Positions 5,602-22,288 of a stretch of DNA of 37,265 nucleotides are shown here, one piece after another (the stretch's first letter is position 1; each line of letters opens with the position of its first letter). The stretch is from a virus (lineage: Duplodnaviria > Heunggongvirae > Uroviricota > Caudoviricetes): IMG/VR virus record IMGVR_UViG_2731957842_000006, one strand, 5' to 3'. The notes beneath the pieces were generated by a model. It worked only from the letters and a program-made list of their open reading frames with translations. It ran no database searches and was not told the DNA's origin. A program made the position numbers and the translations under genes.

Positions 5602-5612
5602 ATTTACTCCAT

Positions 5613-5640
5613 TAAAAAACCCGCTTTCGCGGGTTTTTTA
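5613..5640. terminator. bidirectional intrinsic terminator-like hairpin (AACCCGC-TTTC-GCGGGTT flanked by A6 and T6)
   Basis: Perfect 7-bp GC-rich stem with U-tract on both strands, between the inserted gene stop (5642) and the J-like start (5601). Confidence 0.5.
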
Positions 5641-5641
5641 C

Positions 5642-6801
5642 TTATTCAACCTCTTCTAAACTGCTCACTCTGGACCCTCGGCGGAAATTATCATCATTTT
5701 TAACATACTCATATGAATCCAGAATCAAACCAGATATGCGAAGTATATCTTCCGGATTAGTTATATGTATCCTTTTACCATCCGTATCAAGTCGAGCTCG
5801 TCTTATTTCATTCAACTGAACTTCACTAAGCGAAATAGGTAATGTTATAAATGAAGATTTTTTATCATAAAATCTTAACAGCCATCTATTAGTTTTACCA
5901 TTCAATAGTACACCAAAATATGACTCAGTATCTTTATATTCTATATTATCTTCTGTTTGTATGATTTGTTTTACCCTTTCAAATAGTTCCAATTCTTTGG
6001 CTGTGGTTATTATGTTGGGGTTTTCTTCATCAACAATGGCGTTATTAACTTGTGTATCCGTTGCATCATTTTCTTTAGTTTGCTCTACCGGTTGTGTAGA
6101 TAGCCCGGAAACCACCATTGCGCTAACAGCGCGCTCAACGGCCTGTTTAACTAATGGAGTCACGAACTCAAGAAATCTCTGATTAAGTTGTCTCTCAATA
6201 TTTGAACGACTAGCAACATATCGAACAAACTCCAGATCAACTTCACGAAGACTAGAACTGATTGTTTTAGTAAATGAATTCAAATAAACACTTTCTTCAG
6301 CCAGTGTCCGTAAAGCCTCTGGTTTGAATTTATCATAACGAAAACGAAATAATTGTGTAATATCGGAGTGAGTTAGAGAATCCATTCTTATTTTTAAAAA
6401 CGGCGTTGAATCCATTATGTTTTTTGTTTCAAATCCGTAAAAAAACGCCATTCAACACCATTTGTAATGGCTGATATAGTAACTTCCGGTGTTGAATTAA
6501 AATATCTTGATAGCTGTGGGCAGTGATTATCAATTTGTTCTGAAAACGATTTCGCCTCAATGAACATCACAGGAACATCATGACAAAATAAAGCGTAATC
6601 AACCCGTTCATTAGCCTTAACCCCGGGGAAGTCAGCACTATACTCAGCTTTGACTTTTCTTGGATCATACGGAGTAAAACCAAGAATATCTAGTAATGGC
6701 ATAATGAGTGCTTGTTTTGTCGTTTCTTCAGTTGTACAAAACACCCCCATTTTTGCAACATGCTCTGTGTGTATTTTTAACTTATTTGCAAAATTTTCCA
6801 T
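5642..6801 (-). CDS. HsdR-N-like PD-(D/E)xK nuclease-domain protein with about 265-aa uncharacterised C-terminal region; reading frame broken at a homopolymer (ORFs 6415..6801 and 5642..6451)
   Basis: N-terminal 128 aa carry the restriction-endonuclease-like pattern (PLLDILGF ... VDYALF ... VMFIEAKS ... QLSRYF ... ITNGVEWRFF); GGAGGAG Shine-Dalgarno 8 nt before the ATG at 6801; frame changes at A7 6439-6445 (one extra base would fuse both ORFs); roughly 33-35 percent GC by eye versus about 50 percent in flanks. Confidence 0.5.
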
Positions 6802-6829
6802 GCTTGTCTCCTCCATGGTAACAATATGT

Positions 6830-6859
6830 ATTTTGCAAATCCGAAATAATATATGTCAA
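6830..6859 (-). promoter_or_regulatory. sigma70-like promoter of the inserted nuclease-domain gene
   Basis: Minus strand TTGACA (6854-6859), 18-bp spacer, CAAAAT (6830-6835), about 30 nt upstream of the ATG. Confidence 0.35.
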
Positions 6860-6950
6860 TATGCTCCAGCTTAGAAAATTACTCGCCCCCCTAAAATATC
6901 TCTCTACAGCACTCCAAACCAAGGTAAAAGTTTTATCATAAAACTGTGAT

Positions 6951-10235: not shown

Positions 10236-12314
10236 TTACCCCGGTATTTGTTGCATTCCGGCGAGTTGTGCCAGTATGTCGGAACCTGGTTTTTGTTGAA
10301 CGTCGAGCCTGATTACCTGAGAAGTATTATTTGGTGAATATACGTTTCCCCGGTTCATTGCCAGCGCCCGCATCACATCATCGCCACTTACTGCACGAGC
10401 GGCGTCCCCATTTTCATGGTTAATAATGCCCTGAATTAGCTTTCTCATTATCTCAAAATTAGAACCATCGATTTTCTCCTTAACACCTAATCCGGTGTAC
10501 TGAGAGAGATAGCTTTTATAGGACGATGTGTTATTTCCATCAGATGAAGGGGCATAAATATCAATAATCTGATCAATCGTATTTTTGCCGCGTTTCAGGT
10601 ATAGCATTACCTGCCGATCTAAGGCAGCAATGCCTTCCAGCATCGTCGGGAAGCTGGCAAAACGGGCATTTGGCCCCGATTCCAGGGTAGCCCCTTTTTG
10701 TCCTGCGAAATTAAGATTTCCGGGATTGTTATTCCTGATCCCTCTGGATAAATATGCAGATCTGTTTACTTGATTTGAAAATCCCTGCAATCCTCCAGGC
10801 CAGACCTTACCCGGATTGTTTTTTTGCCACTCCTGCACTTCGTTAAAATAATCAAAGTTGAAACGCCCCTCCAGCCCTTTCATTTCCTCACTGGTGGTAG
10901 GTGTGTCATTTGTAGGAATAGCCAATCCAGCTACTGTTCCGGCTGTAGCCCCAAGAAGACTTCCACCAACAACACGGGCGGCAACTCCGGTCGTTGTGGC
11001 TGCCACAGCACCAACTCTCGATGGTCCAGCAAGTACTGCGGCCCCAAAAAGCCAGGGATGTTCAACCGCAAAACCAACAAACCCGCTAAGTGCCTTAACA
11101 ACCTTTGCAACATTTTCGGCAAAATTATTCAGGTCGTTATTAAAATCCGGGCCATTTACATACTTACCAAGTTTATCCAGACCTGTTTCAACATCAGTCA
11201 AAATTCTTTTAAAGTTCTCACCGTTAAGGAAATTTAGACCAGCATTCTTTACACCATTAGATATTCTAATTAGCTGTACAGAGTTACCCGACATTACCCC
11301 CTGAAATCCGCTGGTAAGTTGATCCCAGTTATTTTCTAAGTTGCTGGTAAGATTCTGATACTGGCTTGTATGTCCAGAGGTGAGCAACGAGTCATTCTGA
11401 GAAGCTCGCGATAAAAACTCTTTGTTGAGTTCAGGTATTTTGTCCTGATATTTGACTAACTGGTTAGCAATACCAAAATTTACCCATCCAAGGCCACGAC
11501 CTCTGAGCATGCTCTGAGTAAGTCCAGTTCCCTCATACTCCTTTGCAAGAGCAGCAACTCTTTCTAACAATACAGGAAGATTTTCTGCTGCCCCTTTTTT
11601 AGGATTTATCCCTAATCCAATTAGCCCGTTGTAGGCAGGATGCTGAGTGTCATTTTGCGCGGCTGCCAGTGTATTGAGCAAATTACCAACACCGGAAAAA
11701 TAAGGCGAATAAGTGCTTTCTGCCGCCTTTAACTCTCCTGGCGTTGCCTGCAATTCATCAGCATTTTTCTGTTTCTCTACAACATTACGAGCCATCATGC
11801 CAAAGCCAAACGGCCCGGCAACACCCATAACCGCAAGTTTTGTCCCCCACGATACGGTGGTTTTAAACAGGTTGTTTAATCTCGAAGTCGTCGTCCGTAG
11901 CGTAGAATTGATCTGCTTGTAAGTTTTCAGCGTCTGTTTGGCGTTTTTCCCCAGCCCGCTGAGGTACTTATCAAACATCGTTTCGCCGCGACCTTTATAG
12001 TTGCTCACCAGCGAATCAGGTGTTTTCCCGCTGCCAACAAAGCGCCATTTTTCATCCCTTAAACGTCCATCAGTGGAAGCAGCCAGAACTGGCGCGGGTG
12101 AAGATGGTTTCCTGGGAGCCTGATTGGCTTCTCCGCCTGTGGTTGTCTGCCAAGAGCCACCTCCCGGACCGGTATTTGAAGGTATTTTAAGCGGCGTACC
12201 GGCAGGGCCAATCATCAGTCCGTTGCGATACTTTTCAAATATCGCCTCAAGCCGCCTGAGGTGTTCTTCATTAACATCCAGCGTCAGAACTGGCATCTGG
12301 TTACCAGCCATCAC
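10236..12314 (-). CDS. putative tail tape measure protein (692 aa)
   Basis: Largest tail-operon ORF, after the chaperone; Gly/Ala-rich hydrophobic stretches (AVLAGPSRVGAVAATTTGVAARVVGGSLLGATAGTVAGLA) typical of tape measure proteins; C-terminal region with RGIRNNNPGNL motif. Confidence 0.55.
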   Translation of the reverse strand: MMAGNQMPVLTLDVNEEHLRRLEAIFEKYRNGLMIGPAGTPLKIPSNTGPGGGSWQTTTGGEANQAPRKPSSPAPVLAASTDGRLRDEKWRFVGSGKTPDSLVSNYKGRGETMFDKYLSGLGKNAKQTLKTYKQINSTLRTTTSRLNNLFKTTVSWGTKLAVMGVAGPFGFGMMARNVVEKQKNADELQATPGELKAAESTYSPYFSGVGNLLNTLAAAQNDTQHPAYNGLIGLGINPKKGAAENLPVLLERVAALAKEYEGTGLTQSMLRGRGLGWVNFGIANQLVKYQDKIPELNKEFLSRASQNDSLLTSGHTSQYQNLTSNLENNWDQLTSGFQGVMSGNSVQLIRISNGVKNAGLNFLNGENFKRILTDVETGLDKLGKYVNGPDFNNDLNNFAENVAKVVKALSGFVGFAVEHPWLFGAAVLAGPSRVGAVAATTTGVAARVVGGSLLGATAGTVAGLAIPTNDTPTTSEEMKGLEGRFNFDYFNEVQEWQKNNPGKVWPGGLQGFSNQVNRSAYLSRGIRNNNPGNLNFAGQKGATLESGPNARFASFPTMLEGIAALDRQVMLYLKRGKNTIDQIIDIYAPSSDGNNTSSYKSYLSQYTGLGVKEKIDGSNFEIMRKLIQGIINHENGDAARAVSGDDVMRALAMNRGNVYSPNNTSQVIRLDVQQKPGSDILAQLAGMQQIPG

Positions 12315-13005
12315 AATACTCCTGCGGGATTTTTGAATTTGAGCAGCTCACGAAACTGAGCTGCTGTTTTTACATTTAGGCCGGAATCTGCACAGATGTC
12401 TCTGAATCCGGCTCCGGCTGAGTAGTCGAGGATGTCGCTGATGACGTGTTCGCCGTCGCGCCAGAACTGGCGGCTGATTTCAATGTCGGCAATGAAGCGA
12501 TCCATTCCGTAAGATTCAATAACGAGCATTGAGTGCTCCATACTCCATTGACCACATCCATAGTCCCCTTCGCCTGCTCCGGTGAATTTATCGACGAGAC
12601 GCATGTAAAAAAAATGAGCTCACCCGCCACTTCATCCAAATCAATGATTTCACGCTCCAGCGCCATATCGAGAGGGATTGTGTCGTAGCCTTTACCCTCC
12701 ACTGGGTAAACAAGATTTGCCAGGCGAATGACCTCATTAACAAGTGTATTACGGACCCCTTTATCACCTTCCCAGATATTAGAATCACGCGAGATCCGCT
12801 CCAGCATCAAAAAAGCGATACGCGGACCCGCAACGACGCCAAGACCTTCTGAAAAAATGGCAGAAAAAGTTTTACTCAGAATGAAGAAATGCTCTTTAAA
12901 CACCTCTTTGCTAATCGGCGTGGCATGGATCCAGCCATTATCCTTTTCTGTCCGGACAGGAATAATCAGGTTTAAATTTCGCGCGATTTTCATACCAGAT
13001 CCCAC
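12311..13005 (-). CDS. tail assembly chaperone-position protein read in two frames (ORFs 12376..13005 and 12311..12604), joined at a U8 tract
   Basis: Canonical position between tube and tape measure; frame switch (-1) exactly at plus-strand A8 12607-12614; zero-frame continuation is low-complexity, -1 frame continuation reads as protein. Confidence 0.4.
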
Positions 13006-13433
13006 ATTTCAGAGTTGATGTAATACGTACCAGTAATGGTGATGGCCACACCCGGCTCGCCCCCGGCGAAGGTCATATCCTGCACGTTGGTGATCGCCGT
13101 GTTATAGATATCGAAGTCACCGAACACCGTGCTGTCGCTATACACTTTTGCGTCGCCGATCGTGGCATTCTTTTCCCATTGCGTCTTGAATTGTTTTCCC
13201 AGCGCCTGGCTACGCAGCAGATGAACACGCGCCTGTAAAATCATGTATGGCTGCGGCGACTGCACGGCTCCCGTCATAGCGGGTAAAAACTCCGTGATAT
13301 TGCCCTGAAAGGACAATTCGACGCCTTCTTTTGCCAGAAAAGAGGCGGACACATTCAGTTCAGAATGGGAGGTAAATTTAACGCTGGCGCGAACCCGGTT
13401 AAGGGTGCCAACGGGGATCATTGGATTAGGCAC
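12990..13433 (-). CDS. putative tail tube protein (147 aa)
   Basis: Small ORF immediately after the sheath-sized gene and before the chaperone. Confidence 0.5.
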   Translation of the reverse strand: MPNPMIPVGTLNRVRASVKFTSHSELNVSASFLAKEGVELSFQGNITEFLPAMTGAVQSPQPYMILQARVHLLRSQALGKQFKTQWEKNATIGDAKVYSDSTVFGDFDIYNTAITNVQDMTFAGGEPGVAITITGTYYINSEMWDLV

Positions 13434-13444
13434 GGTTCAGTCCC

Positions 13445-14782
13445 TCACGAAAGCTGCATTGTCACATTGATGTTAAAAATGATTTCGACAAATCCGCGCA
13501 TCGGCGTATAGGAGGCCGAAAGGCCTGCATAACGCCCGATACCGTAATCATTGGGATTAGTGTTGATATACTGGCGGAAAGGCACTGCATCGACGACAGG
13601 CTGACCGTTGACCAGGCCGTAAGATACGCCCGTATTGAACACCGCCTGTGCGACCTGCTGCAGACGGTCGATCCCGTCCTGGTTGTAGTAAAGCGGGTTA
13701 ATTGGGTTATTGCTACCGTTGATCACCGTGTTGGCGAGCTGCATATCGACATTAATCTGCACCCAGTCCACGGAATACCAGTACGTCATATCGTTACCGT
13801 CACTGGTAACGCCTTTCACCAGAATCGTGTTGGAAATTCCCCCCTCAGCCCCCGTGTCGACGTAGTTAATATTCTGCTTCGTCATCGTGACCAGAATTGA
13901 ATTTTTGCCCTTGTGGGCGTTTACCGCCTGTAGATAACGAAATGCCATCGGCGGCACCTTGTTGATTTCTGAAGGTGATGCGGAAACATAGTTCCACATT
14001 ACGGCTGCTGCCGCGTTTGTCGCCGGGTACGTATCATCCGCCGTTGCAATAACCGACTTAATACCGGCATAAGGCGAAACGTAATTCGTGTCGTCCGGCG
14101 TTTTCGTCAGCACGAAGAAATACTGCATCGCTTCGTTGGCGGTGTGGAGTTTTGCCAGACTGATAAATTCTGCGTCACCATCCCACCGCTGCGGCACCAG
14201 ATACGCATAAAACCGCAGGAGCGGATCTTCCATATAAGCTTTCAGTGCAGCGATTTCCTTACTGACCCCGCCTTTCTGTACTCCCAGCTCCAGCAGGTAA
14301 ATCCCAACTGAATTTCCCTGGGCAAAAAACGTGTTTACTGCCGTCACCAGATTTTCACTGCCGACAATGGAAAACTGCCCCAGTGTCACTGGCGAACCGG
14401 AAAGCTGAGAATCAGCAATCGTCCAGGTCAGTGTTTTTTCATCCGTGACGGTAGCAGTATATTCGCCATTCCACGCGTCGGGCGAACACCCGGAAACAAC
14501 AATTTTCACCTCAGAACTGTTTTCGCGTCGGATGTTGCTCCCTTCCGGAAGCGTCATCGTAACGGTGACGTTTGCCGCAGATTTTCCTGCGGCAGCCGCC
14601 GACAACGCAGCAATCGGATTTTTAACCAGATCGTTAATATCCTGATTGCTGGTGAGTAATACAGGCTTCCCCGGCTCATGAGTCGTGGAGCCAAACGAGA
14701 GAACCGCAGACATCTGCTGCAGATTCGAGGGTATGGCCCCGATGGTCTGGGACACATTCACCGTGACGATATTAAACCCCAT
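13445..14782 (-). CDS. putative contractile tail sheath protein (445 aa)
   Basis: Size and position upstream of tube, chaperone and tape measure; family not verifiable without a search. Confidence 0.5.
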   Translation of the reverse strand: MGFNIVTVNVSQTIGAIPSNLQQMSAVLSFGSTTHEPGKPVLLTSNQDINDLVKNPIAALSAAAAGKSAANVTVTMTLPEGSNIRRENSSEVKIVVSGCSPDAWNGEYTATVTDEKTLTWTIADSQLSGSPVTLGQFSIVGSENLVTAVNTFFAQGNSVGIYLLELGVQKGGVSKEIAALKAYMEDPLLRFYAYLVPQRWDGDAEFISLAKLHTANEAMQYFFVLTKTPDDTNYVSPYAGIKSVIATADDTYPATNAAAAVMWNYVSASPSEINKVPPMAFRYLQAVNAHKGKNSILVTMTKQNINYVDTGAEGGISNTILVKGVTSDGNDMTYWYSVDWVQINVDMQLANTVINGSNNPINPLYYNQDGIDRLQQVAQAVFNTGVSYGLVNGQPVVDAVPFRQYINTNPNDYGIGRYAGLSASYTPMRGFVEIIFNINVTMQLS

Positions 14783-17117: not shown

Positions 17118-17309
17118 TTATGCGTATTCCCGGCGTTTGTCCGGCGACTCCTCCACCAGCTCCTGCCATGTCGCGGTAAATTCACGTCGCCACTGGTAAA
17201 ACGTGGTTTTATAGTCATCAGTTATGATGTCCGGGTAATCATTTTTCAGCGACTGATAAAATTCCTCGTTCCAGGCGATGTACTGCACCAGGCGTTCGAA
17301 ATAATCCAT
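17118..17309 (-). CDS. small hypothetical protein (63 aa)
   Basis: ATG overlaps the terminase TGA (TGATG coupling); no similarity to a terminase nuclease domain. Confidence 0.3.
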   Translation of the reverse strand: MDYFERLVQYIAWNEEFYQSLKNDYPDIITDDYKTTFYQWRREFTATWQELVEESPDKRREYA

Positions 17310-18043
17310 CACAGGTTCAATCTGCTGGCGTACACCATCGATAACGCGTCTTTGGACCAGTCCACGAACTCGGCAAGATATTCCTGCTGCCAAACGCGCG
17401 GATCGGATTTCTTCTCCGTTTCCTCCAGTTCTTCTTTCGGAATGTACGGATTCGATGAAGTTGGCGCATGGTGCATGACAAATCCCAGGGATTCATCGTG
17501 GCATATCGCGTAGAAAAAATTGCTCTCGTCGATACCGTTTGGTGTGGAAAATACCCACGCACAGCCACGGTAATCAACAAGCGTCGGGCGTATAGCGCGG
17601 GGCCAGATTTCCTCGAGCATTTCCGGCGATTTAGTGAATGCGGCCTCATCAATCAGCACAGCGTGATATTTACGCCCACGCCCGGCCAGTTTGTTATTGT
17701 CCGTTACCCAAAAGTCGATGCGCCCCCCATTACGGAGAATAATGCGCTTTTCATTTTTTGACTGGCTGAGGATCAGCGGTTGCAGAACGGCGCTAATTTC
17801 ATCCCAGATTTCCTGGTACTGTCGGTATTGTGCGGTAAAAATCCCCACCCTACCCGCGATAAGCTGCCCGGTGGTAGGAACGGCAAATTTCCGCGTCGCG
17901 AAACTGGTAGCGATGTTCACCAGCATCACCGTTTTACCCCAGCGACGACCACAGCATACCGCGTGGAAGCGTTCCTCTATTGCCGCCGTCCATGCAGCTA
18001 TTTGCCCCTCATGAGGTTTTGGGAGGTAGATTTCAATCGACAT
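17309..18043 (-). CDS. terminase large subunit, N-terminal ATPase domain only (244 aa; truncated)
   Basis: Walker A GRRWGKT and Walker B-like VLIDEAAF with STPNG motif; ORF ends after about 244 aa and no nuclease domain, portal or capsid genes follow. Confidence 0.6.
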   Translation of the reverse strand: MSIEIYLPKPHEGQIAAWTAAIEERFHAVCCGRRWGKTVMLVNIATSFATRKFAVPTTGQLIAGRVGIFTAQYRQYQEIWDEISAVLQPLILSQSKNEKRIILRNGGRIDFWVTDNNKLAGRGRKYHAVLIDEAAFTKSPEMLEEIWPRAIRPTLVDYRGCAWVFSTPNGIDESNFFYAICHDESLGFVMHHAPTSSNPYIPKEELEETEKKSDPRVWQQEYLAEFVDWSKDALSMVYASRLNL

Positions 18044-19124
18044 TATCCACTCCCGGCATCGGCAGAGAGTTGTGGATAATTATTTCGTTATTCTCACCAC
18101 CCACACCTTTTTTGAGGTTTTCAATCTCAGTGCGCAGCTTTTCGTTGCGAAGCCTCAGTCCTTCAAGCTCCAGATCATTGCGACTGTCAGTTGCACCACC
18201 AGCAGAACTTCCTTTCGTCGCCGTTATCAGCTTGATAAGTTCGCGCCGGGCGGCAGCCTTATCCTCCAGCAGGATCTCAACGCCGAATTTTCCGAGCTTT
18301 GCCCCTGCATATAATTGCCGCGCATCCCCATCAAGCAGAGCGGTATCAGCCATATAAAGCTGTCCCATTCCCTCACCGCAGCACTTCGGGCAGTCCAGAT
18401 TGGGTATGGCGTTATCAACAAAGCCAAGGCCTCCATATTCCGGCTCGGGTTTGCCATCTCTGGAGGCCTGTGCCGCTGCCTTATCGAATTCTGCAATATC
18501 ACGCCACTGGTAGAGGTGATTCTCGCCCCAGCAATAACGGCAGTTAACACGGCGAAATTGTGCCAACTGATTGGGGTCGGCCTGGACAATGGCCATCAAC
18601 TGACTCACCAGTAAATCCAGGTCTGCGGTATAGCGTTTCTGATACTGATTGCGGAAGTAGCTGATAGCACGATAAACCCTGGCATTTCTAAGCATACGGC
18701 TGGCGTTGCTGTTAGCTGTCGCACCTTGCCCCTCATAACCAGCCAGTCGGTATGCCTCTGTCGGCTTTTTCCCCTGAGCAACAAGCATCGCAAACTTAGC
18801 CTGCTGGTCAGAAATGCCGAATTCATCGGGGCAGAACGAAAATTCCTCCGCGTCGCCCTCATTCAGGCACGCATCGGATACTGGCTTTTTTTTCTGAGAT
18901 TTTCCGTTCCGCTTTTGCGCAGTCTGCGCAGATTTTTTCTGCGCACTTTGTTGCGCAGTTTTGCGCATTTCTGTCTGCGCATTTTTCGGAGGTTTTTTGA
19001 TGTAACGACGGGCTGTTGCGTAATTCAGTCCCCTTGCCTCACACCATGCCACCGGGGATACACCGGAGCGGGTGTATTCAGCAATATATTCCTGCTGCAA
19101 CGCCCCCCAGTCCGGTCTGCTCAT
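18033..19124 (-). CDS. putative terminase small subunit (363 aa; N-terminal HTH, Cys-rich C-terminal region)
   Basis: Directly upstream of and coupled to the terminase ATPase gene; HTH-like segment VSPVAWCEARGLNYATARRYI; CxxC ... CPKCC cysteine cluster. Confidence 0.5.
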   Translation of the reverse strand: MSRPDWGALQQEYIAEYTRSGVSPVAWCEARGLNYATARRYIKKPPKNAQTEMRKTAQQSAQKKSAQTAQKRNGKSQKKKPVSDACLNEGDAEEFSFCPDEFGISDQQAKFAMLVAQGKKPTEAYRLAGYEGQGATANSNASRMLRNARVYRAISYFRNQYQKRYTADLDLLVSQLMAIVQADPNQLAQFRRVNCRYCWGENHLYQWRDIAEFDKAAAQASRDGKPEPEYGGLGFVDNAIPNLDCPKCCGEGMGQLYMADTALLDGDARQLYAGAKLGKFGVEILLEDKAAARRELIKLITATKGSSAGGATDSRNDLELEGLRLRNEKLRTEIENLKKGVGGENNEIIIHNSLPMPGVDNVD

Positions 19125-19127
19125 TAG

Positions 19128-19379
19128 TTAGTCCTGATTTTTATCCACCCTGAGTAGTTCACGCAGGGCAAAGGCATCCCCTTTTCTGGCAAGCTTAAAC
19201 AATGCCGCCCGTAGTTCGGCTTCACCTTTCGCTCTGCCCTTACGGATGGATGCGTAAAAATCTGTCATTGCTTCCCGATTTTCTTTCAGTCGGTTCAGAT
19301 CAACATCCAGAACGTCAGCGATTTGTTGTGCAGTCATCCGGCACGCTGCCAGAGACTCTACTTTCGAATACGGAATCAT
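19128..19379 (-). CDS. small HTH-like protein (83 aa)
   Basis: GGGGGTGA Shine-Dalgarno before the ATG at 19379; helix-turn-helix-like MTAQQIADVLDVD; overlaps the upstream gene end by 65 nt. Confidence 0.35.
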   Translation of the reverse strand: MIPYSKVESLAACRMTAQQIADVLDVDLNRLKENREAMTDFYASIRKGRAKGEAELRAALFKLARKGDAFALRELLRVDKNQD

Positions 19380-20247
19380 TTGTCACCCCCATTGATATGC
19401 AGGGTGTCTTCTTCCTGTATTTTTCGTGAAGGATTTTTACTGCAGCGTTGTTCCAGGTGACCTGATGGTGAATGCGTTTATGGCTGGCACCCATCAGTGA
19501 GATTTTTACGCACGACGGCGCATACATGACGGAGTAAAAACTTTTAACGTAGGTTCCGGAGTCCAGATACAGCTCGGTCATTCCGCCGCTGTTTTTCTGC
19601 GTCTGTTTCTGCCCTAACTGGACAGCACCGATCGTCATAAACAATTCACCACAGCGACCAAGATTCGTATACGTATTCACATCCTCGTTAATGCGCCCCA
19701 TGAATGAGAACGGTCGATCAACGGAACAGATAAAACTGTTCATTGCCTTGCGTTTCACCCACGAAGCATGGCCGCCATTGTCACCAAGAAAATCTCCGCC
19801 CTGCGACATAGCGATGGAAAGCGCAGGTATTGATTCGTAGTACGCCAGCATTTCAGAAAGGATCGCATCCAGTTTTCTTATCGGGAAATAGGCCTGGTCA
19901 TAGTTGCGATCCACCCGAAACTGGAACTCGTGATAATCATCATCGAGCTGAATGAAGTATTTACACCCGACCAGTTTTGCCAGGTCGAAACAGGCATTAC
20001 GGGCGTAAAAAATTGATCGGCGGTCACCGAAATTATCGGCTTCGTCAAAACGACTGGCGATATCGGCTTTGGAAAACACCAGCACCTGTTCACTAAATTC
20101 AGCTATGTAGTGATGCCGTGTATTATCTTCATCATCAACAACGATAAAAATTTTCCCGGTATAGCCAGCACGACGCAACGTCCGGTAAGTCAGAACTTTG
20201 TCCGGTCGCCCGTGAGTCAGAATAAAGGCGCAAAAATCATCACGCAT
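19315..20247 (-). CDS. hypothetical protein (about 310 aa) with DxD-like acidic motifs (IVVDDED, QLDDDYHEF); possible nucleotide-sugar-binding fold
   Basis: Start at 20247 preceded by GGAGGAGGAGGA, which doubles as the Glu-run at the end of the ParB-like gene; function is inference only. Confidence 0.45.
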   Translation of the reverse strand: MRDDFCAFILTHGRPDKVLTYRTLRRAGYTGKIFIVVDDEDNTRHHYIAEFSEQVLVFSKADIASRFDEADNFGDRRSIFYARNACFDLAKLVGCKYFIQLDDDYHEFQFRVDRNYDQAYFPIRKLDAILSEMLAYYESIPALSIAMSQGGDFLGDNGGHASWVKRKAMNSFICSVDRPFSFMGRINEDVNTYTNLGRCGELFMTIGAVQLGQKQTQKNSGGMTELYLDSGTYVKSFYSVMYAPSCVKISLMGASHKRIHHQVTWNNAAVKILHEKYRKKTPCISMGVTNDSVFESRVSGSVPDDCTTNR

Positions 20248-21031
20248 ATTCCTCCTCCTCCCCGCCATGCATGATCTCCACCATACGCTGCGTCATCCGG
20301 ACAAATCCATTTTCAATAGCCTGCTGATAATCAATGATCACCAGCGCCGATTCCTCGAAAAAGCACTGAATTTCAGCGGGGGCGTGAGCGTAATAGTCCG
20401 CAATTCTGCTGAAATTAAACACCGTATGACGTTCTGCCGCACACAGGAGGAATTTCTCAATATCAGGATCAAGGGACGCCGAACGTATCCGGCTGATCAA
20501 CTCCTGAGTTTTCGTATCGTCGTACAGTTCACTGATATCTGGTTTATCGCCCGACGGCTCATAAACAGGCGTATCAATTTTCGTCGTGTACGGTTCCTCC
20601 TCATTTCCTGTACCGGGCAAAACATCCGTCAACAGTTCATCAATTTCTGTCGGGCTGAATCCTGTCAGGGAGATATCAAAATCAGCATTGATTAGGTCCG
20701 ACAGCTCCATCCGTAACAGATCTTCATCCCAGCCAGCATTCATCGGCAGGCGATTATCTGCCAGGCGGTACGCCTTTTTCTGATCATCCGTCAGACCAGA
20801 CAGAACAATAACCGGAACCGAATCCATTTTGAGCGCCTCAGCCGCCATAACGCGACCGTGACCAGCAATAATTTCGCCCTTTTCATCAATCAGCACTGGA
20901 TTAGTCCAGCCGAATTGCTTAATGCTTTCTACCAGTTGTGCCACCTGCTCAGGGCTGTGTGTCCTGGCATTGTGTGCATACGGAGACAGTTCTTGTAACG
21001 GGCGATAGACGATCTTCAATTTCTCGCTCAT
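20240..21031 (-). CDS. ParB-like nuclease-domain protein (263 aa)
   Basis: N-terminal ParB/Srx-like segment (LSPYAHNARTHSPEQVAQLVESIKQFGWTNPVLIDEKGEIIAGHGRVMAA); GAGG Shine-Dalgarno. Confidence 0.7.
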   Translation of the reverse strand: MSEKLKIVYRPLQELSPYAHNARTHSPEQVAQLVESIKQFGWTNPVLIDEKGEIIAGHGRVMAAEALKMDSVPVIVLSGLTDDQKKAYRLADNRLPMNAGWDEDLLRMELSDLINADFDISLTGFSPTEIDELLTDVLPGTGNEEEPYTTKIDTPVYEPSGDKPDISELYDDTKTQELISRIRSASLDPDIEKFLLCAAERHTVFNFSRIADYYAHAPAEIQCFFEESALVIIDYQQAIENGFVRMTQRMVEIMHGGEEEEYA

Positions 21032-21435
21032 ACAGCCTCGCTTTATGAATAAAAAAGCCCGCTATCGGCCAGTACGCTGGGTGCGCGGCGGGTGCCGATG
21101 ACGAGCTTTGGCATTATCGCAACCCCTCACCATGAAGGGCTGCTGTAATGCCTGTTACTCACGAATCAAACGAGCATGCTGACCACTCATTTCAATGCGT
21201 AAGTATTGTGGCTTGCCGTCAATCAACGCGGTGATTAACTTGTCACCTGTAGGTTTCCACATAATTTTCTCCTGTTTTAATGCCCCTTGCCGCCAGGCAG
21301 TTGATCAAAGTTCATCTTGATTCGGCAAGATTTAGAATGAATAAGATAAAATTGGCACACGCAGCAGAATTTCATGCTTTCCGGACGCTGGCGCACCCTT
21401 CATTTTTCAGCAAAATATTCTGCTATTACAGGCGA

Positions 21436-21617
21436 TCAGTTCTGCATACACTGCCGAACACCATCAATAAGCTGACAGACCTGAGACGCGGTATCGAAAA
21501 GCTGGCGCGCCTTATCCAGGCTAACGCATCCCACCAATAAAAAAGGCACCAGTATCGCTACCAGTGCCCATTTCGCCGCTGTTCGCGGCGTTCTGTGTGT
21601 CCAGTGTTTTCTGCTCA
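21436..21617 (-). CDS. small lipoprotein (60 aa), o-spanin-like position after the endolysin
   Basis: Start at internal ATG 21617; signal-peptide-like N-terminus with lipobox LVGC (MSRKHWTHRTPRTAAKWALVAILVPFLLVGC); no cognate i-spanin ORF seen. Confidence 0.4.
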
Positions 21618-21632
21618 TAACACACCTGGTTA

Positions 21633-22016
21633 TCAGCGTTTCAACTGAAAGTGAGGTCCGTCTTTCAGTGTTTTCCAGTCCCCGCCCCATTCGATGGCAG
21701 TTCCCAGCTCTGCGGCAGCCTGCTTAAATGCCTGCGCGATTTTCTCGTACAGAGGCCAGTCCCATGACACCTGGCTACCAATGTAGGCAACAACATCCAC
21801 CGCATCACCTGTCAGGTGGCGGCTGTTCATGGTCTGGCTCTTGCCTTCTGCAACCAGCTGTTTCTGGCGATACTTACTGCGCAGGCCTTCCGTAATACCG
21901 AAATCAACCTCCGTCAGCTCCAGCGCACGGCGAACGACAGCAACCAGCTGTGGTTTGACGCCCTCCAGATTTTTTTCACTGCGACGGCTGAATCTGAATT
22001 TACCCGACATATTCAC
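21633..22016 (-). CDS. endolysin, peptidase M15-like (L-alanyl-D-glutamate peptidase type)
   Basis: 127-aa ORF with SRHLTGDAVDV and DGPHFQL motifs; last gene of a holin-membrane protein-endolysin arrangement. Confidence 0.7.
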   Translation of the reverse strand: MNMSGKFRFSRRSEKNLEGVKPQLVAVVRRALELTEVDFGITEGLRSKYRQKQLVAEGKSQTMNSRHLTGDAVDVVAYIGSQVSWDWPLYEKIAQAFKQAAAELGTAIEWGGDWKTLKDGPHFQLKR

Positions 22017-22288
22017 CTCAACAATGGAAAGATTTTTGTGACGTTCCCGCGTGCGCGTATTACCAGCACACAGAACAACAGATTAAAAAACACTTCCAGC
22101 CAGCCCATTGCTAACGGACGACCACACAGATAGCTGAGTGGCGCAAAGGCATAAAGCAGCATCAACAGCCAGGCCAGCCATGACATCAGCGGTTTATGTC
22201 TGGAATCACGACGACGGTAAAAAAAGAGCGTCAGTACGATAACCGTGCATAACGCCACATTCAGCAATCCGGGAAGGTTACCTGACAT
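22013..22288 (-). CDS. small membrane protein in the lysis cassette (about 91 aa)
   Basis: Start MSGNLPG with GGAGGAGG Shine-Dalgarno; two or three hydrophobic helices; coupled to the endolysin start. Confidence 0.4.
   Translation of the reverse strand: MSGNLPGLLNVALCTVIVLTLFFYRRRDSRHKPLMSWLAWLLMLLYAFAPLSYLCGRPLAMGWLEVFFNLLFCVLVIRARGNVTKIFPLLR

What the first reader, a model, noticed from the sequence alone, without database searches (positions are those of the whole stretch)
12311..13005. Possible programmed -1 frameshift at a U8 tract in the tail chaperone position
The gene between tube and tape measure is the canonical site of programmed frameshifting in tailed phages. The frame switch here is -1 and sits on U UUU UUU, which fits the X XXY YYZ slippery pattern. 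Atypically, the zero frame continues for about 70 low-complexity codons rather than stopping soon after, so an indel is the alternative.
Basis: inference. Interest (0 to 1): 0.45.

Follow-up and report, generated by a model that had tools for sequence, protein, structure and literature searches.

The report
Conserved frameshift in tail chaperone gene
The run of eight T's is a real, deeply conserved programmed -1 frameshift site in a previously unannotated phage tail-assembly chaperone gene; unusually, the shift falls about 60-76 codons before the end of the short protein, so both reading frames encode conserved protein over that stretch.

Summary
On the minus strand a T8 run (12607-12614) lies in the gene between the sheath/tube genes and the tape-measure gene. 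It reads ATT TTT TTT ACA in frame 0, so U_UUU_UUU is in phase. The -1 frame opens three codons upstream and ends in TGATG on the tape-measure start.

It is not an indel. Of 114 distinct related loci (E. coli prophages, Klebsiella and Pantoea phages, alphaproteobacterial MAGs, down to about 35% protein identity), 109 carry T8 or T7 in the same phase, although other Phe codons in these genes are TTT only 38% of the time. Single-ORF T9 versions are rare: 1 of 114 loci and 7 of 813 protein clusters.

Residues 130-170 are conserved and are modelled with pLDDT above 90 as part of the short protein's fold. Only about the last 30 residues are disordered. Shuffle tests and suppressed third-position diversity show selection on both frames.

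Best reading: a -1 shift, most likely ribosomal, gives a 205-aa and a 227-aa protein that share 129 residues and have different C-terminal modules. This is a new variant of the lambda G/GT and P2 E/E+E' scheme. No protein or RNA data exist.

The parts
13445..14782 (-). Tail sheath gene (445 aa)
   Evidence: It matches PHROG phrog_205 'tail sheath' with E 1.3e-54. It lies directly upstream of the 147-aa ORF.
12990..13433 (-). Presumed tail tube gene (147 aa). The assignment rests on position and size only.
   Evidence: It lies between the sheath gene and the chaperone gene, and its TGA stop overlaps the chaperone ATG as ATGA. Its only family match is phrog_6566 'unknown function'. It has no meaningful match to PDB sequences.
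12376..12993 (-). Frame-0 chaperone ORF, the short product 'G' (205 aa). Residues 1-129 are shared with the long product. Residues 130-170 are a conserved folded extension. Residues 175-205 are a disordered S/T/A/P-rich tail ending in ..VQIPA.
   Evidence: Sequence.
- It matches phrog_11810 over its full length.
- In an alignment of 50 distant homologues FF128-129 is invariant, and W152, S167 and L168 are at least 90% conserved.
- The AlphaFold2 model has pLDDT above 90 for residues 1-170, with a helix at 119-135 that spans the shift site. Residues 175-205 score below 50.
- A C-terminal ..SS[VIL]P-x motif is present in 29 of 40 lineages.
12619..12625 (-). Shine-Dalgarno-like GGGUGAG, 5 nt upstream of the heptamer. 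It is a possible upstream stimulator (tentative).
   Evidence: The 23 nt upstream of the heptamer pair with the 16S 3' end at -10.5 kcal/mol in the window. Across 40 lineages the mean is -9.9, against -8.07 for synonymous shuffles (sd of the mean 0.41; no shuffle of 300 reached the observed mean) and -5.1 for control windows in the same genes. The signal is not significant in the window alone (P 0.33) and is absent in some lineages.
12620..12622 (-). TGA stop that closes the -1 frame three codons upstream of the slippery run
   Evidence: Direct reading of the sequence. In most relatives the -1 frame is closed 2-11 codons upstream of the run.
12607..12613 (-). Slippery heptamer U_UUU_UUU. It is part of the T8 run at 12607-12614 and is always followed by A.
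   Evidence: - Phase was verified.
- Among 114 distinct loci, T8 occurs in one phase in 93 and T7 in the equivalent phase in 16.
- All 40 representative lineages that carry the run have NNT TTT TTT A. Other Phe codons in these genes are TTT only 38% of the time, and third-position T is 23%.
- The H_HH.U_UU.Y class is among the most efficient -1 motifs in E. coli (PMC4066793).
12311..12607 (-). -1 frame 'T' coding region: Tyr130, then 97 codons and a TGA stop. With residues 1-129 it gives the 227-aa long product 'GT'.
   Evidence: Sequence.
- It matches phrog_14324.
- Conserved motifs are Y130 (100%), Y162-G163, D170 (100%), R175, W178-R179, L189, G196-F197 and R215 (100%).
- The AlphaFold2 model of residues 131-227 shows a disordered linker of about 20 residues followed by a helical domain with pLDDT about 80.
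- The rare T9 variants encode exactly ...IFFYMRLV....
12376..12606 (-). Dual-coding overlap of 76 frame-0 codons plus the stop, read in both frames
   Evidence: - Shuffle tests that hold one frame's protein fixed: the frame-0 tail has a mean pairwise score of 91 against a null of 29 +/- 0.8, and the -1 frame 102 against 26 +/- 0.6.
- In 390 distant pairs, identity is 26.6% (frame 0) and 27.9% (-1 frame) against a null of 18.9 +/- 0.3%.
- Third-position diversity is suppressed to 0.18 in both frames, against 0.395 in the N domain and 0.27 in the T-only part.
10236..12311 (-). Tape-measure-like gene with a lytic transglycosylase domain (691 aa from ATG 12311)
   Evidence: - It matches phrog_7694 over its full length. 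Residues 496-641 match phrog_2276 'tail length tape measure protein' and transglycosylase families.
- RefSeq annotates it as a lytic transglycosylase domain protein.
- Its ATG overlaps the -1 frame stop (TGATG) and has a GGAG 7 nt upstream.
- In most of the 40 lineages a start codon of the long downstream ORF lies within about -1 to +12 nt of the -1 stop.

Best explanation
This is the tail assembly chaperone gene of a contractile-tailed temperate phage, present here as an E. coli prophage.

Most ribosomes read frame 0 and make a 205-aa protein. It consists of a folded domain of about 170 residues, a disordered tail and a short conserved C-terminal motif.

A minority of ribosomes slip back one base when the two Phe codons UUU UUU (codons 128-129) occupy the P and A sites on U_UUU_UUU_A. 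They then read Tyr and 97 further codons in the -1 frame. The result is a 227-aa protein: residues 1-129, a flexible linker, and a helical 'T' domain. This frame ends exactly at the start of the tape-measure gene.

By analogy with lambda G/GT, the shared N-terminal part would bind the tape-measure protein and the T domain would recruit the tube protein.

The locus differs from lambda and P2. The shift falls 76 codons (59-87 in relatives) before the end of the short ORF and inside a predicted helix. The two proteins therefore have alternative C-terminal modules, and the overlap is truly dual-coding.

Shown here: the anatomy, the conservation of the site and of both frames, and the rarity of fused forms.
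Inferred: that the shift happens, that it is ribosomal rather than transcriptional, its efficiency, and the roles of the parts.
For: **Position**
- Sheath (phrog_205), then a 147-aa ORF, then this gene, then a tape-measure/transglycosylase gene.

**The site is not an error**
- The region is identical or near-identical in 93 complete E. coli genomes.
- The 205-aa form is seen on thousands of contigs, against 1-6 contigs for each fused form.

**Conservation of the site**
- 109 of 114 distinct loci have T8 or T7 giving U_UUU_UUU in phase. These reach down to about 35% identity and include alphaproteobacterial MAGs and the isolated phages Chronis and PdC23.
- The 3 loci without a run keep the shift-prone tetramer U_UUU in phase, with both frames intact.
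- TTT is otherwise the minority Phe codon (38%) in these genes.
- UUUUUUU is generally avoided in E. coli genes (PMC4066793).

**The -1 ORF**
- It encodes a conserved domain.
- It usually lacks a start codon: an ATG lies within 8 codons in 11 of 40 lineages.
- It is closed just upstream of the site.
- It abuts the tape-measure start.
- Distant homologues in a search of 1.8 billion representative proteins mostly match the fused query only up to residue about 130.
- T9 variants and rare distant fused ORFs all read ..FFY.. at the predicted junction.

**Both frames under selection**
-.

**Structure**
- The frame-0 tail is part of a confident fold.

**Motif efficiency**
- The H_HH.U_UU.Y class is among the most efficient -1 heptamers in E. 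coli.
- P2-like myophages use T6G, T7G or T7C at the same gene position (PMC3931495).
Against: - There is no experimental evidence (protein, ribosome profiling or RNA) for either product in any member. None of the 7 public phage records that hold a homologue annotates a frameshift or a chaperone.
- No downstream stimulatory RNA structure was found. In the window z is +0.3 to +0.75, and the family mean z is about -0.15.
- A U8 run could also support transcriptional slippage, which would give the same protein.
- The tube assignment rests on position only.
- This prophage has lost its head genes, so the gene may no longer be in use in this particular strain.
Confidence: 0.8

Rival explanations
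1. Transcriptional slippage rather than ribosomal slippage. RNA polymerase stutters on the A8 template run and adds one U to a fraction of transcripts. Normal translation of these U9 mRNAs yields the same 227-aa protein.
For: - Homopolymeric U/A runs are the known substrate for slippage. Sharma et al. attribute the avoidance of UUUUUUU in all three frames of E. coli genes partly to transcriptional slippage (PMC4066793).
- No downstream RNA stimulator for ribosomal shifting was found.
- T8 is the commonest form, in 93 of 114 loci, one base longer than a ribosomal heptamer needs.
Against: - 16 of 114 loci have only T7 and 3 have only U_UUU (T4). These are too short for efficient polymerase slippage but are still recognised -1 ribosomal motifs, always in the ribosomal phase.
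- The phase is invariant, which polymerase slippage does not require. This point is confounded by the conserved Phe-Phe.
- An upstream SD-like enrichment, which is a ribosomal stimulator, is present.
- From my own knowledge, well-studied bacterial slippage sites usually have 9 or more A/T; I did not check this here.
Confidence: 0.12
2. An indel or sequencing error, or a decaying gene. The true gene would be a single 227-aa ORF with T9, and the window would carry a one-base deletion.
For: - Homopolymers are error-prone, and T9 versions with one continuous ORF exist: L074, L174-L176 and P0001.
- This prophage is defective in its head genes.
Against: - T8 or T7 with two frames is the form in 109 of 114 distinct loci from independent assemblies and hosts, including isolated, propagating phages.
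- Fused forms are 7 of 813 protein clusters, each on 1-6 mostly short contigs. Three of the four close fused forms switch frame at other, random positions.
- The frame-0 tail is itself conserved, ends at a conserved position with a conserved C-terminal motif, and is predicted to fold. A frame disrupted by an indel would not show these features.
Confidence: 0.02
3. Two independent overlapping genes. The 97-aa -1 ORF would be translated on its own from ATG 12604, as some annotations and phrog_14324 imply, with no frameshift and no fusion protein.
For: - In the window and its close relatives an ATG directly follows the run (..TAC ATG..).
- A few gene callers have called the 97-aa ORF: 24 such proteins were found in the database.
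Against: - An ATG within 8 codons of the site occurs in only 11 of 40 lineages, and any ATG, GTG or TTG in 15 of 40.
- The Tyr codon immediately before it, which would lie outside such an ORF, is 100% conserved in the -1 frame.
- The slippery run upstream of it is conserved at the nucleotide level.
- There is no well-spaced SD: GGGUGAG ends about 14 nt upstream of that ATG.
Confidence: 0.05

Closest known systems
Phage lambda G / GT tail assembly chaperones (programmed -1 frameshift; Levin 1993, Xu 2004/2013/2014, as summarised in PMC5009743)
   Same: - Gene position immediately upstream of the tape-measure gene.
- Two ORFs, with the second in the -1 frame and lacking its own initiation signal.
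- A conserved in-phase slippery heptamer.
- The long product is the N-terminal part plus a 'T' domain.
- The shift site is conserved despite low protein similarity.
   Different: [quoted passage not shown] Here 76 frame-0 codons (59-87 in relatives) follow the site. They are conserved and predicted to be part of the fold, so the short and long products have alternative C-terminal modules.
- The slippery sequence differs: U_UUU_UUU here against G_GGA_AAG in lambda (the lambda sequence is from my own knowledge).
- No sequence or fold similarity was detected.
Phage P2 E / E+E' and P2-like myophages (T6G, T7G or T7C slippery runs; Christie 2002, as described in PMC3931495)
   Same: - A contractile-tail phage.
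- A chaperone pair between the tube gene and the tape-measure gene.
- A poly-T slippery run.
- The -1 ORF overlaps the start of the tape-measure gene.
   Different: - In P2, E' extends only 37 nt back into E and the run is near the 3' end of E. Here the overlap is 231 nt and is dual-coding.
- The base after the run is A here, not G or C.
- There is no detectable homology.
E. coli dnaX tau/gamma and IS3-family OrfA/OrfAB -1 frameshifts
   Same: - A -1 slip on a homopolymer-type heptamer in a bacterial system.
- A possible upstream Shine-Dalgarno-like stimulator. The dnaX and IS precedent is from my own knowledge.
- U_UU.U_UU.C is among the heptamers found in IS elements.
   Different: - Those sites also use downstream hairpins or pseudoknots. 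None is detectable here.
- The biology is unrelated.
- From my own knowledge, in dnaX the shifted frame terminates almost at once.

Membership tests
G/GT-type tail assembly chaperone pair with programmed -1 frameshift | The gene lies between the major tail (tube) gene and the tape-measure gene | tested here: met
   The order is sheath (phrog_205, E 1e-54), a 147-aa ORF, this gene, then a 691-aa protein matching phrog_2276 'tape measure' and transglycosylase families. The order is the same in Rac-SA53, Chronis and PdC23. The tube identity rests on position only.
G/GT-type tail assembly chaperone pair with programmed -1 frameshift | The second ORF is in the -1 frame, lacks its own start and ribosome-binding site, and is reachable only from the first ORF | tested here: met
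   The -1 frame is verified. It is closed 2-11 codons upstream of the site in most loci. An ATG lies within 8 codons in only 11 of 40 lineages.
G/GT-type tail assembly chaperone pair with programmed -1 frameshift | An X_XXY_YYZ slippery heptamer in the frame-0 phase, conserved among relatives beyond what the protein sequence requires | tested here: met
   U_UUU_UUU is in phase in 109 of 114 loci. TTT is only 38% of the other Phe codons and third-position T is 23%.
G/GT-type tail assembly chaperone pair with programmed -1 frameshift | [quoted passage not shown] | tested here: not met
   Frame 0 continues for 76 codons in the window and 53-87 in relatives. Residues 130-170 are conserved and are modelled inside the fold, and the site lies within helix 119-135.
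G/GT-type tail assembly chaperone pair with programmed -1 frameshift | Both products are made in a fixed ratio, are required for tail assembly and are absent from virions | not testable with these tools
   This needs expression, mass spectrometry and genetics. No publication on this family mentions it.
Known chaperone protein families (Pfam/PDB tail assembly chaperone folds) | Sequence or fold similarity to a described chaperone family | tested here: inconclusive
   - Pfam: no hit.
- PHROGs: both families are labelled 'unknown function'.
- PDB profile search: nothing.
- Foldseek against BFVD: only sub-threshold matches (E 0.18-0.9) to proteins labelled tail assembly chaperone or 'pre-tape measure frameshift protein G'.
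Transcriptional-slippage recoding sites | A homopolymer long enough for polymerase stuttering (usually 9 or more A/T, from my own knowledge), with function independent of codon phase | tested here: inconclusive
   The run is T8 in 93 loci, T7 in 16 and T4 in 3, always in one phase. Short variants argue against slippage, but T8 does not exclude a contribution.

The most novel reading that the evidence does not exclude
In this widespread phage family (625 representative clusters at 50% identity, from Enterobacteria to Alphaproteobacteria) the chaperone frameshift does not simply extend the short protein. Instead it switches between two alternative C-terminal modules.

- In frame 0, ribosomes complete a fold of about 170 residues, followed by a disordered tail that ends in a conserved ..SS[VIL]P-x peptide.
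- After the shift, which falls in the middle of a predicted helix, ribosomes replace that part with a linker and a helical T domain.
- The 60-76 codon overlap has been kept as true dual-coding sequence, with constraint partitioned between the frames. The frame-0 fold lies over the -1 linker, and the -1 core lies over the frame-0 disordered tail.

This would imply a division of labour between the two chaperones that differs from the lambda 'G is contained in GT' model.
Probability: 0.55. Interest if true: 0.6.

Novelty: new variant of a known kind. Interest (0 to 1): 0.5.

Why it matters
- **Annotation.** It assigns a function and a recoding event to two 'unknown function' phage protein families, phrog_11810 and phrog_14324. 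They are labelled hypothetical in every public record examined. The second gene product is missed in nearly all genomes, including enterotoxin-carrying E. coli prophages of the Rac-SA53 type and the Klebsiella and Pantoea phages of the Chronis/Certevirus group.
- **Recoding biology.** It offers a clean, deeply conserved natural U_UUU_UUU_A site with no detectable downstream structure. It also offers a rare bacterial-virus example of a long overlap (about 230 nt) in which both frames show purifying selection.
- **Tail assembly.** It suggests that the short chaperone can carry a module of its own that the long one lacks. This is testable by deleting frame-0 residues 130-205 without touching the -1 frame, and the reverse.

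Tried and rejected
- **Downstream stimulatory RNA.** MFE folding of 57 and 107 nt after the site in the window gave z +0.27 and +0.75. In 40 lineages at 45, 70 and 100 nt the mean z was about -0.15. No structure is supported. Pseudoknots were not modelled.
- **Frame-0 openness as evidence on its own.** Given the -1 protein, synonymous shuffles keep frame 0 open as long as observed in about 20% of trials per lineage. Openness by itself is therefore weak evidence. The argument rests on amino-acid conservation, the conserved stop position and motif, the diversity pattern and the structure model.
- **Distant loci.** The search for related loci failed with the 50-sequence alignment because no stretch was conserved enough. 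Smaller alignments worked. Genome contigs returned only 5 loci.
- **Structure of the full fused product.** The T part was modelled alone instead. How residues 1-129 fold without the frame-0 extension is therefore untested.
- **Missing DNA.** No DNA was available for the fused protein P0271.
- **Literature.** The literature on Rac-SA53, Chronis and PdC23 says nothing about this gene.
Full report
**1. What is in the sequence**

All genes in this part of the window are on the minus strand. Their order is:
- a 445-aa tail sheath gene (13445-14782; phrog_205, E 1.3e-54);
- a 147-aa ORF (12990-13433), taken as the tube gene from its position;
- the gene in question;
- a 691-aa protein (10236-12311) that matches tape-measure and lytic-transglycosylase families.

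The frame-0 ORF starts at ATG 12993, which overlaps the upstream stop as ATGA. It reads ...GAG CTC ATT TTT TTT ACA... across the T8 run (12607-12614). U_UUU_UUU is therefore in X_XXY_YYZ phase on Phe128-Phe129. Frame 0 runs for 76 more codons to a stop at 12376-12378, giving 205 aa.

The -1 frame is closed by a TGA three codons before the run. It is then open for 98 codons to a TGA at 12311-12313, which overlaps the tape-measure ATG (TGATG). A GGAG lies 7 nt upstream of that ATG. The predicted shifted product is 227 aa with the junction ...ELIFF-YMRLV....

**2. It is not an indel**

The window is an E. coli prophage. The region is found in 93 of 5,426 complete E. coli genomes at 80-100% identity. 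It also occurs in phage Rac-SA53 and in a record named Actinobacillus phage pPE4. Every record annotates only the 205-aa ORF, as 'hypothetical'.

A search of 5.8 billion protein clusters with the conceptual 227-aa product found the 205-aa form on thousands of contigs. It found only four full-length fused proteins, each on 1-6 contigs:
- One fused protein (P0001) has the predicted junction.
- The other three change frame at other, scattered positions, which looks like random errors.

A profile search found 7 fused proteins among 813 hits. The DNA of the fused cases that could be fetched carries T9.

**3. The site and both frames are conserved across very distant relatives**

A search of 1.8 billion representative proteins found 625 relatives. 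Most are 186-205 aa long and match the fused query only up to residue about 130, which is the shift site.

I fetched DNA for relatives from genome and viral collections and analysed 114 distinct loci:

| Run at the site | Distinct loci | Note |
|---|---|---|
| T8 | 93 | one phase |
| T7 | 16 | the equivalent phase |
| T9 | 1 | fused ORF |
| T6 | 1 | A_UUU_UUU |
| T4 | 3 | the tetramer U_UUU in phase |

- In total, 109 of the 114 loci have U_UUU_UUU in phase.
- In every locus without a T9 run, the -1 frame after the site encodes a conserved domain of 93-121 codons. Its motifs include ..LYG..F..D[IV][DE]..R.[FY]WRDG...S..LD[YW]..G.GF...[FY]R.R.
- In the 109 loci analysed for a T7 or T8 run, frame 0 continues for 53-87 codons.
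- The relatives include alphaproteobacterial MAGs at 36-39% identity and the isolated phages Klebsiella Chronis (T8) and Pantoea PdC23 (T7).

In 40 representative lineages (under 80% identity to each other), other Phe codons in these genes are TTT only 38% of the time, and third-position T is 23%. The base after the run is always A.

Sharma et al. report three relevant points (PMC4066793):
- UUUUUUU is under-represented in E. coli genes in all frames.
- H_HH.U_UU.Y heptamers are among the most efficient -1 motifs in E. coli.
- U_UU.[U,C] tetramers are among the most shift-prone tetramers.

**4. The -1 ORF is not an independent gene**

- The ATG that follows the run in the window is not conserved. 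An ATG lies within 8 codons in 11 of 40 lineages, and any start codon in 15 of 40.
- The Tyr codon before it is invariant in the -1 frame.
- In most lineages a start codon of the long downstream ORF lies within about -1 to +12 nt of the -1 frame stop. The frame-0 stop lies 47-164 nt further upstream.

**5. The frame-0 continuation is real protein**

*Residue conservation*
- In an alignment of 50 distant frame-0 homologues, FF128-129 is invariant. W152, S167 and L168 are at least 90% conserved (confirmed on my own loci).
- W152 and L168 lie over positions that are variable in the -1 frame, so they are not by-products of the other frame. G178 is a by-product, because it lies over the -1 frame's W-R.
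- The C-terminus ends in ..SS[VIL]P-x in 29 of 40 lineages.

*Shuffle tests that hold one frame's protein fixed*

| Measure | Frame-0 tail | -1 frame (overlap part) | Null |
|---|---|---|---|
| Mean pairwise score | 91 | 102 | 29 +/- 0.8 and 26 +/- 0.6 |
| Identity in 390 distant pairs | 26.6% | 27.9% | 18.9 +/- 0.3% |

*Diversity within 40 enterobacterial sequences*
- Third-position diversity is 0.395 in the N domain.
- It is only 0.183 (frame 0) and 0.175 (-1 frame) in the overlap.
- It is 0.272 in the T-only part.
- The first half of the overlap behaves more like frame-0 coding and the second half more like -1 coding.

*Structure*
- AlphaFold2 with 49 homologues models residues 1-170 at pLDDT above 90.
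- Helix 119-135 spans the shift site.
- Helices 138-152 and 161-167 come from the frame-0 continuation.
- Only residues 175-205 are disordered.

*A caveat*

Openness of frame 0 is weak evidence on its own, at about 0.2 per lineage under synonymous shuffling.

**6. Stimulators**

No stable downstream structure is detectable in the window or across the family.

The 23 nt upstream of the heptamer are enriched for pairing with the 16S 3' end:
- mean -9.9 kcal/mol across 40 lineages;
- -8.07 for synonymous shuffles (sd of the mean 0.41);
- -5.1 for control windows in the same genes.

In the window the element is GGGUGAG, 5 nt before the heptamer. This is suggestive only. It is not significant in the window alone and is absent in some lineages.

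**7. What it most likely is and does**

It is a tail assembly chaperone pair made by a programmed -1 shift at U_UUU_UUU_A. By analogy with lambda (PMC5009743), the shared N-terminal 129 residues would bind the tape-measure protein and the T domain would bind the tube protein.

The T part, modelled alone, is a linker of about 20 disordered residues followed by a helical domain of about 70 residues at pLDDT about 80. The roles of the parts are inferred, not shown.

Transcriptional slippage on the U8 run would give the same protein and cannot be excluded. The T7 and U_UUU variants and the constant phase favour a ribosomal event.

**8. Comparison with known systems**

- Position, frame relationship and a conserved in-phase slippery run match the lambda G/GT and P2 E/E+E' scheme.
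- P2-like myophages even use poly-T runs (T6G, T7G, T7C) (PMC3931495).
- One defining trait is not met. In lambda the shift is near the 3' end of G, and in P2 the overlap is 37 nt. Here the overlap is 231 nt, is dual-coding, and begins inside a predicted helix. The two products therefore have alternative C-terminal modules.
- No sequence or fold relationship to described chaperones was found. Foldseek gave only sub-threshold hits to proteins labelled as chaperones. The T domain matched nothing.

**9. Novelty and score**

The phenomenon as a kind is textbook. This family is unannotated in every public record that I examined. The long dual-coding overlap with a mid-domain shift is, to my knowledge, unusual for this system. 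I rate it a new variant of a known kind, with interest 0.5. Everything about expression remains to be shown experimentally.

Noticed in passing
window 17127-17343 (compared with L177, Rac-SA53): Relative to phage Rac-SA53 the window lacks about 5.5 kb of head genes. There are two deletion junctions, at about 17127/17128 and 17336-17343. They remove the 3' part of terL, the presumed portal gene, and the genes through the presumed major capsid gene (rac41-rac45). The remaining terL ORF (17309-18043) is only 244 aa. The prophage is therefore probably defective for head assembly, although its tail module is intact.
   Followed up: partly
window 18972-22031; ORFs 19315-20268 and 20240-21031 (minus strand): The segment between the lysis genes and terS has no counterpart in Rac-SA53, which carries the LT-IIa enterotoxin genes at that place. 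Here there is a 317-aa protein that matches phrog_842, annotated as a glucosyltransferase, and a 263-aa ORF. This looks like a swapped cargo (moron) locus.
   Followed up: no
L002 (PP818812.1, 'Actinobacillus phage vB_Apl-pPE4'): A record named as an Actinobacillus pleuropneumoniae phage is 90% identical in DNA to this E. coli prophage region and has the same gene order. The stated host may deserve checking.
   Followed up: no
L074 (IMGVR_UViG_2896595138_000001), L174, L175, L176: There are rare T9 length variants of the slippery run that fuse the two frames into one ORF of 227-235 aa. They occur in at least two separate lineages. They could be sequencing errors or genuine slipped-strand mutants that make only the long product.
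   Followed up: partly
L144, L146, L165 (about 2880-2900 in each locus): Three distant relatives have lost the long T run (..GTA TAT TTT ACA.. and ..TCT TTT ATT..). They keep both frames intact and keep a U_UUU tetramer in phase. They may shift at lower efficiency on the tetramer alone.
   Followed up: partly
window 5609-6940; ORF 5642-6451 (minus strand): A 269-aa protein matching phrog_4225 'endonuclease' and an adjacent 133-aa ORF sit inside the baseplate and tail-fibre module. This stretch does not align with Rac-SA53, which has antirepressor and other genes there. It is a variable insertion spot within the tail module.
   Followed up: no
L142, L143 (-1 frame, after the FWRD motif): Two GC-rich relatives carry a Cys-rich insertion of about 20 residues (..CTCERG..CGC.. 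and ..CSCGRSAAGTAEGCDCGRG..) inside the T domain. This may be a metal-binding loop.
   Followed up: no
window 10236-12311 (minus strand): The tape-measure-like protein carries a lytic transglycosylase-like domain (residues about 496-641) near its C-terminal end. It also has glycine/alanine-rich hydrophobic segments around residues 430-490.
   Followed up: no
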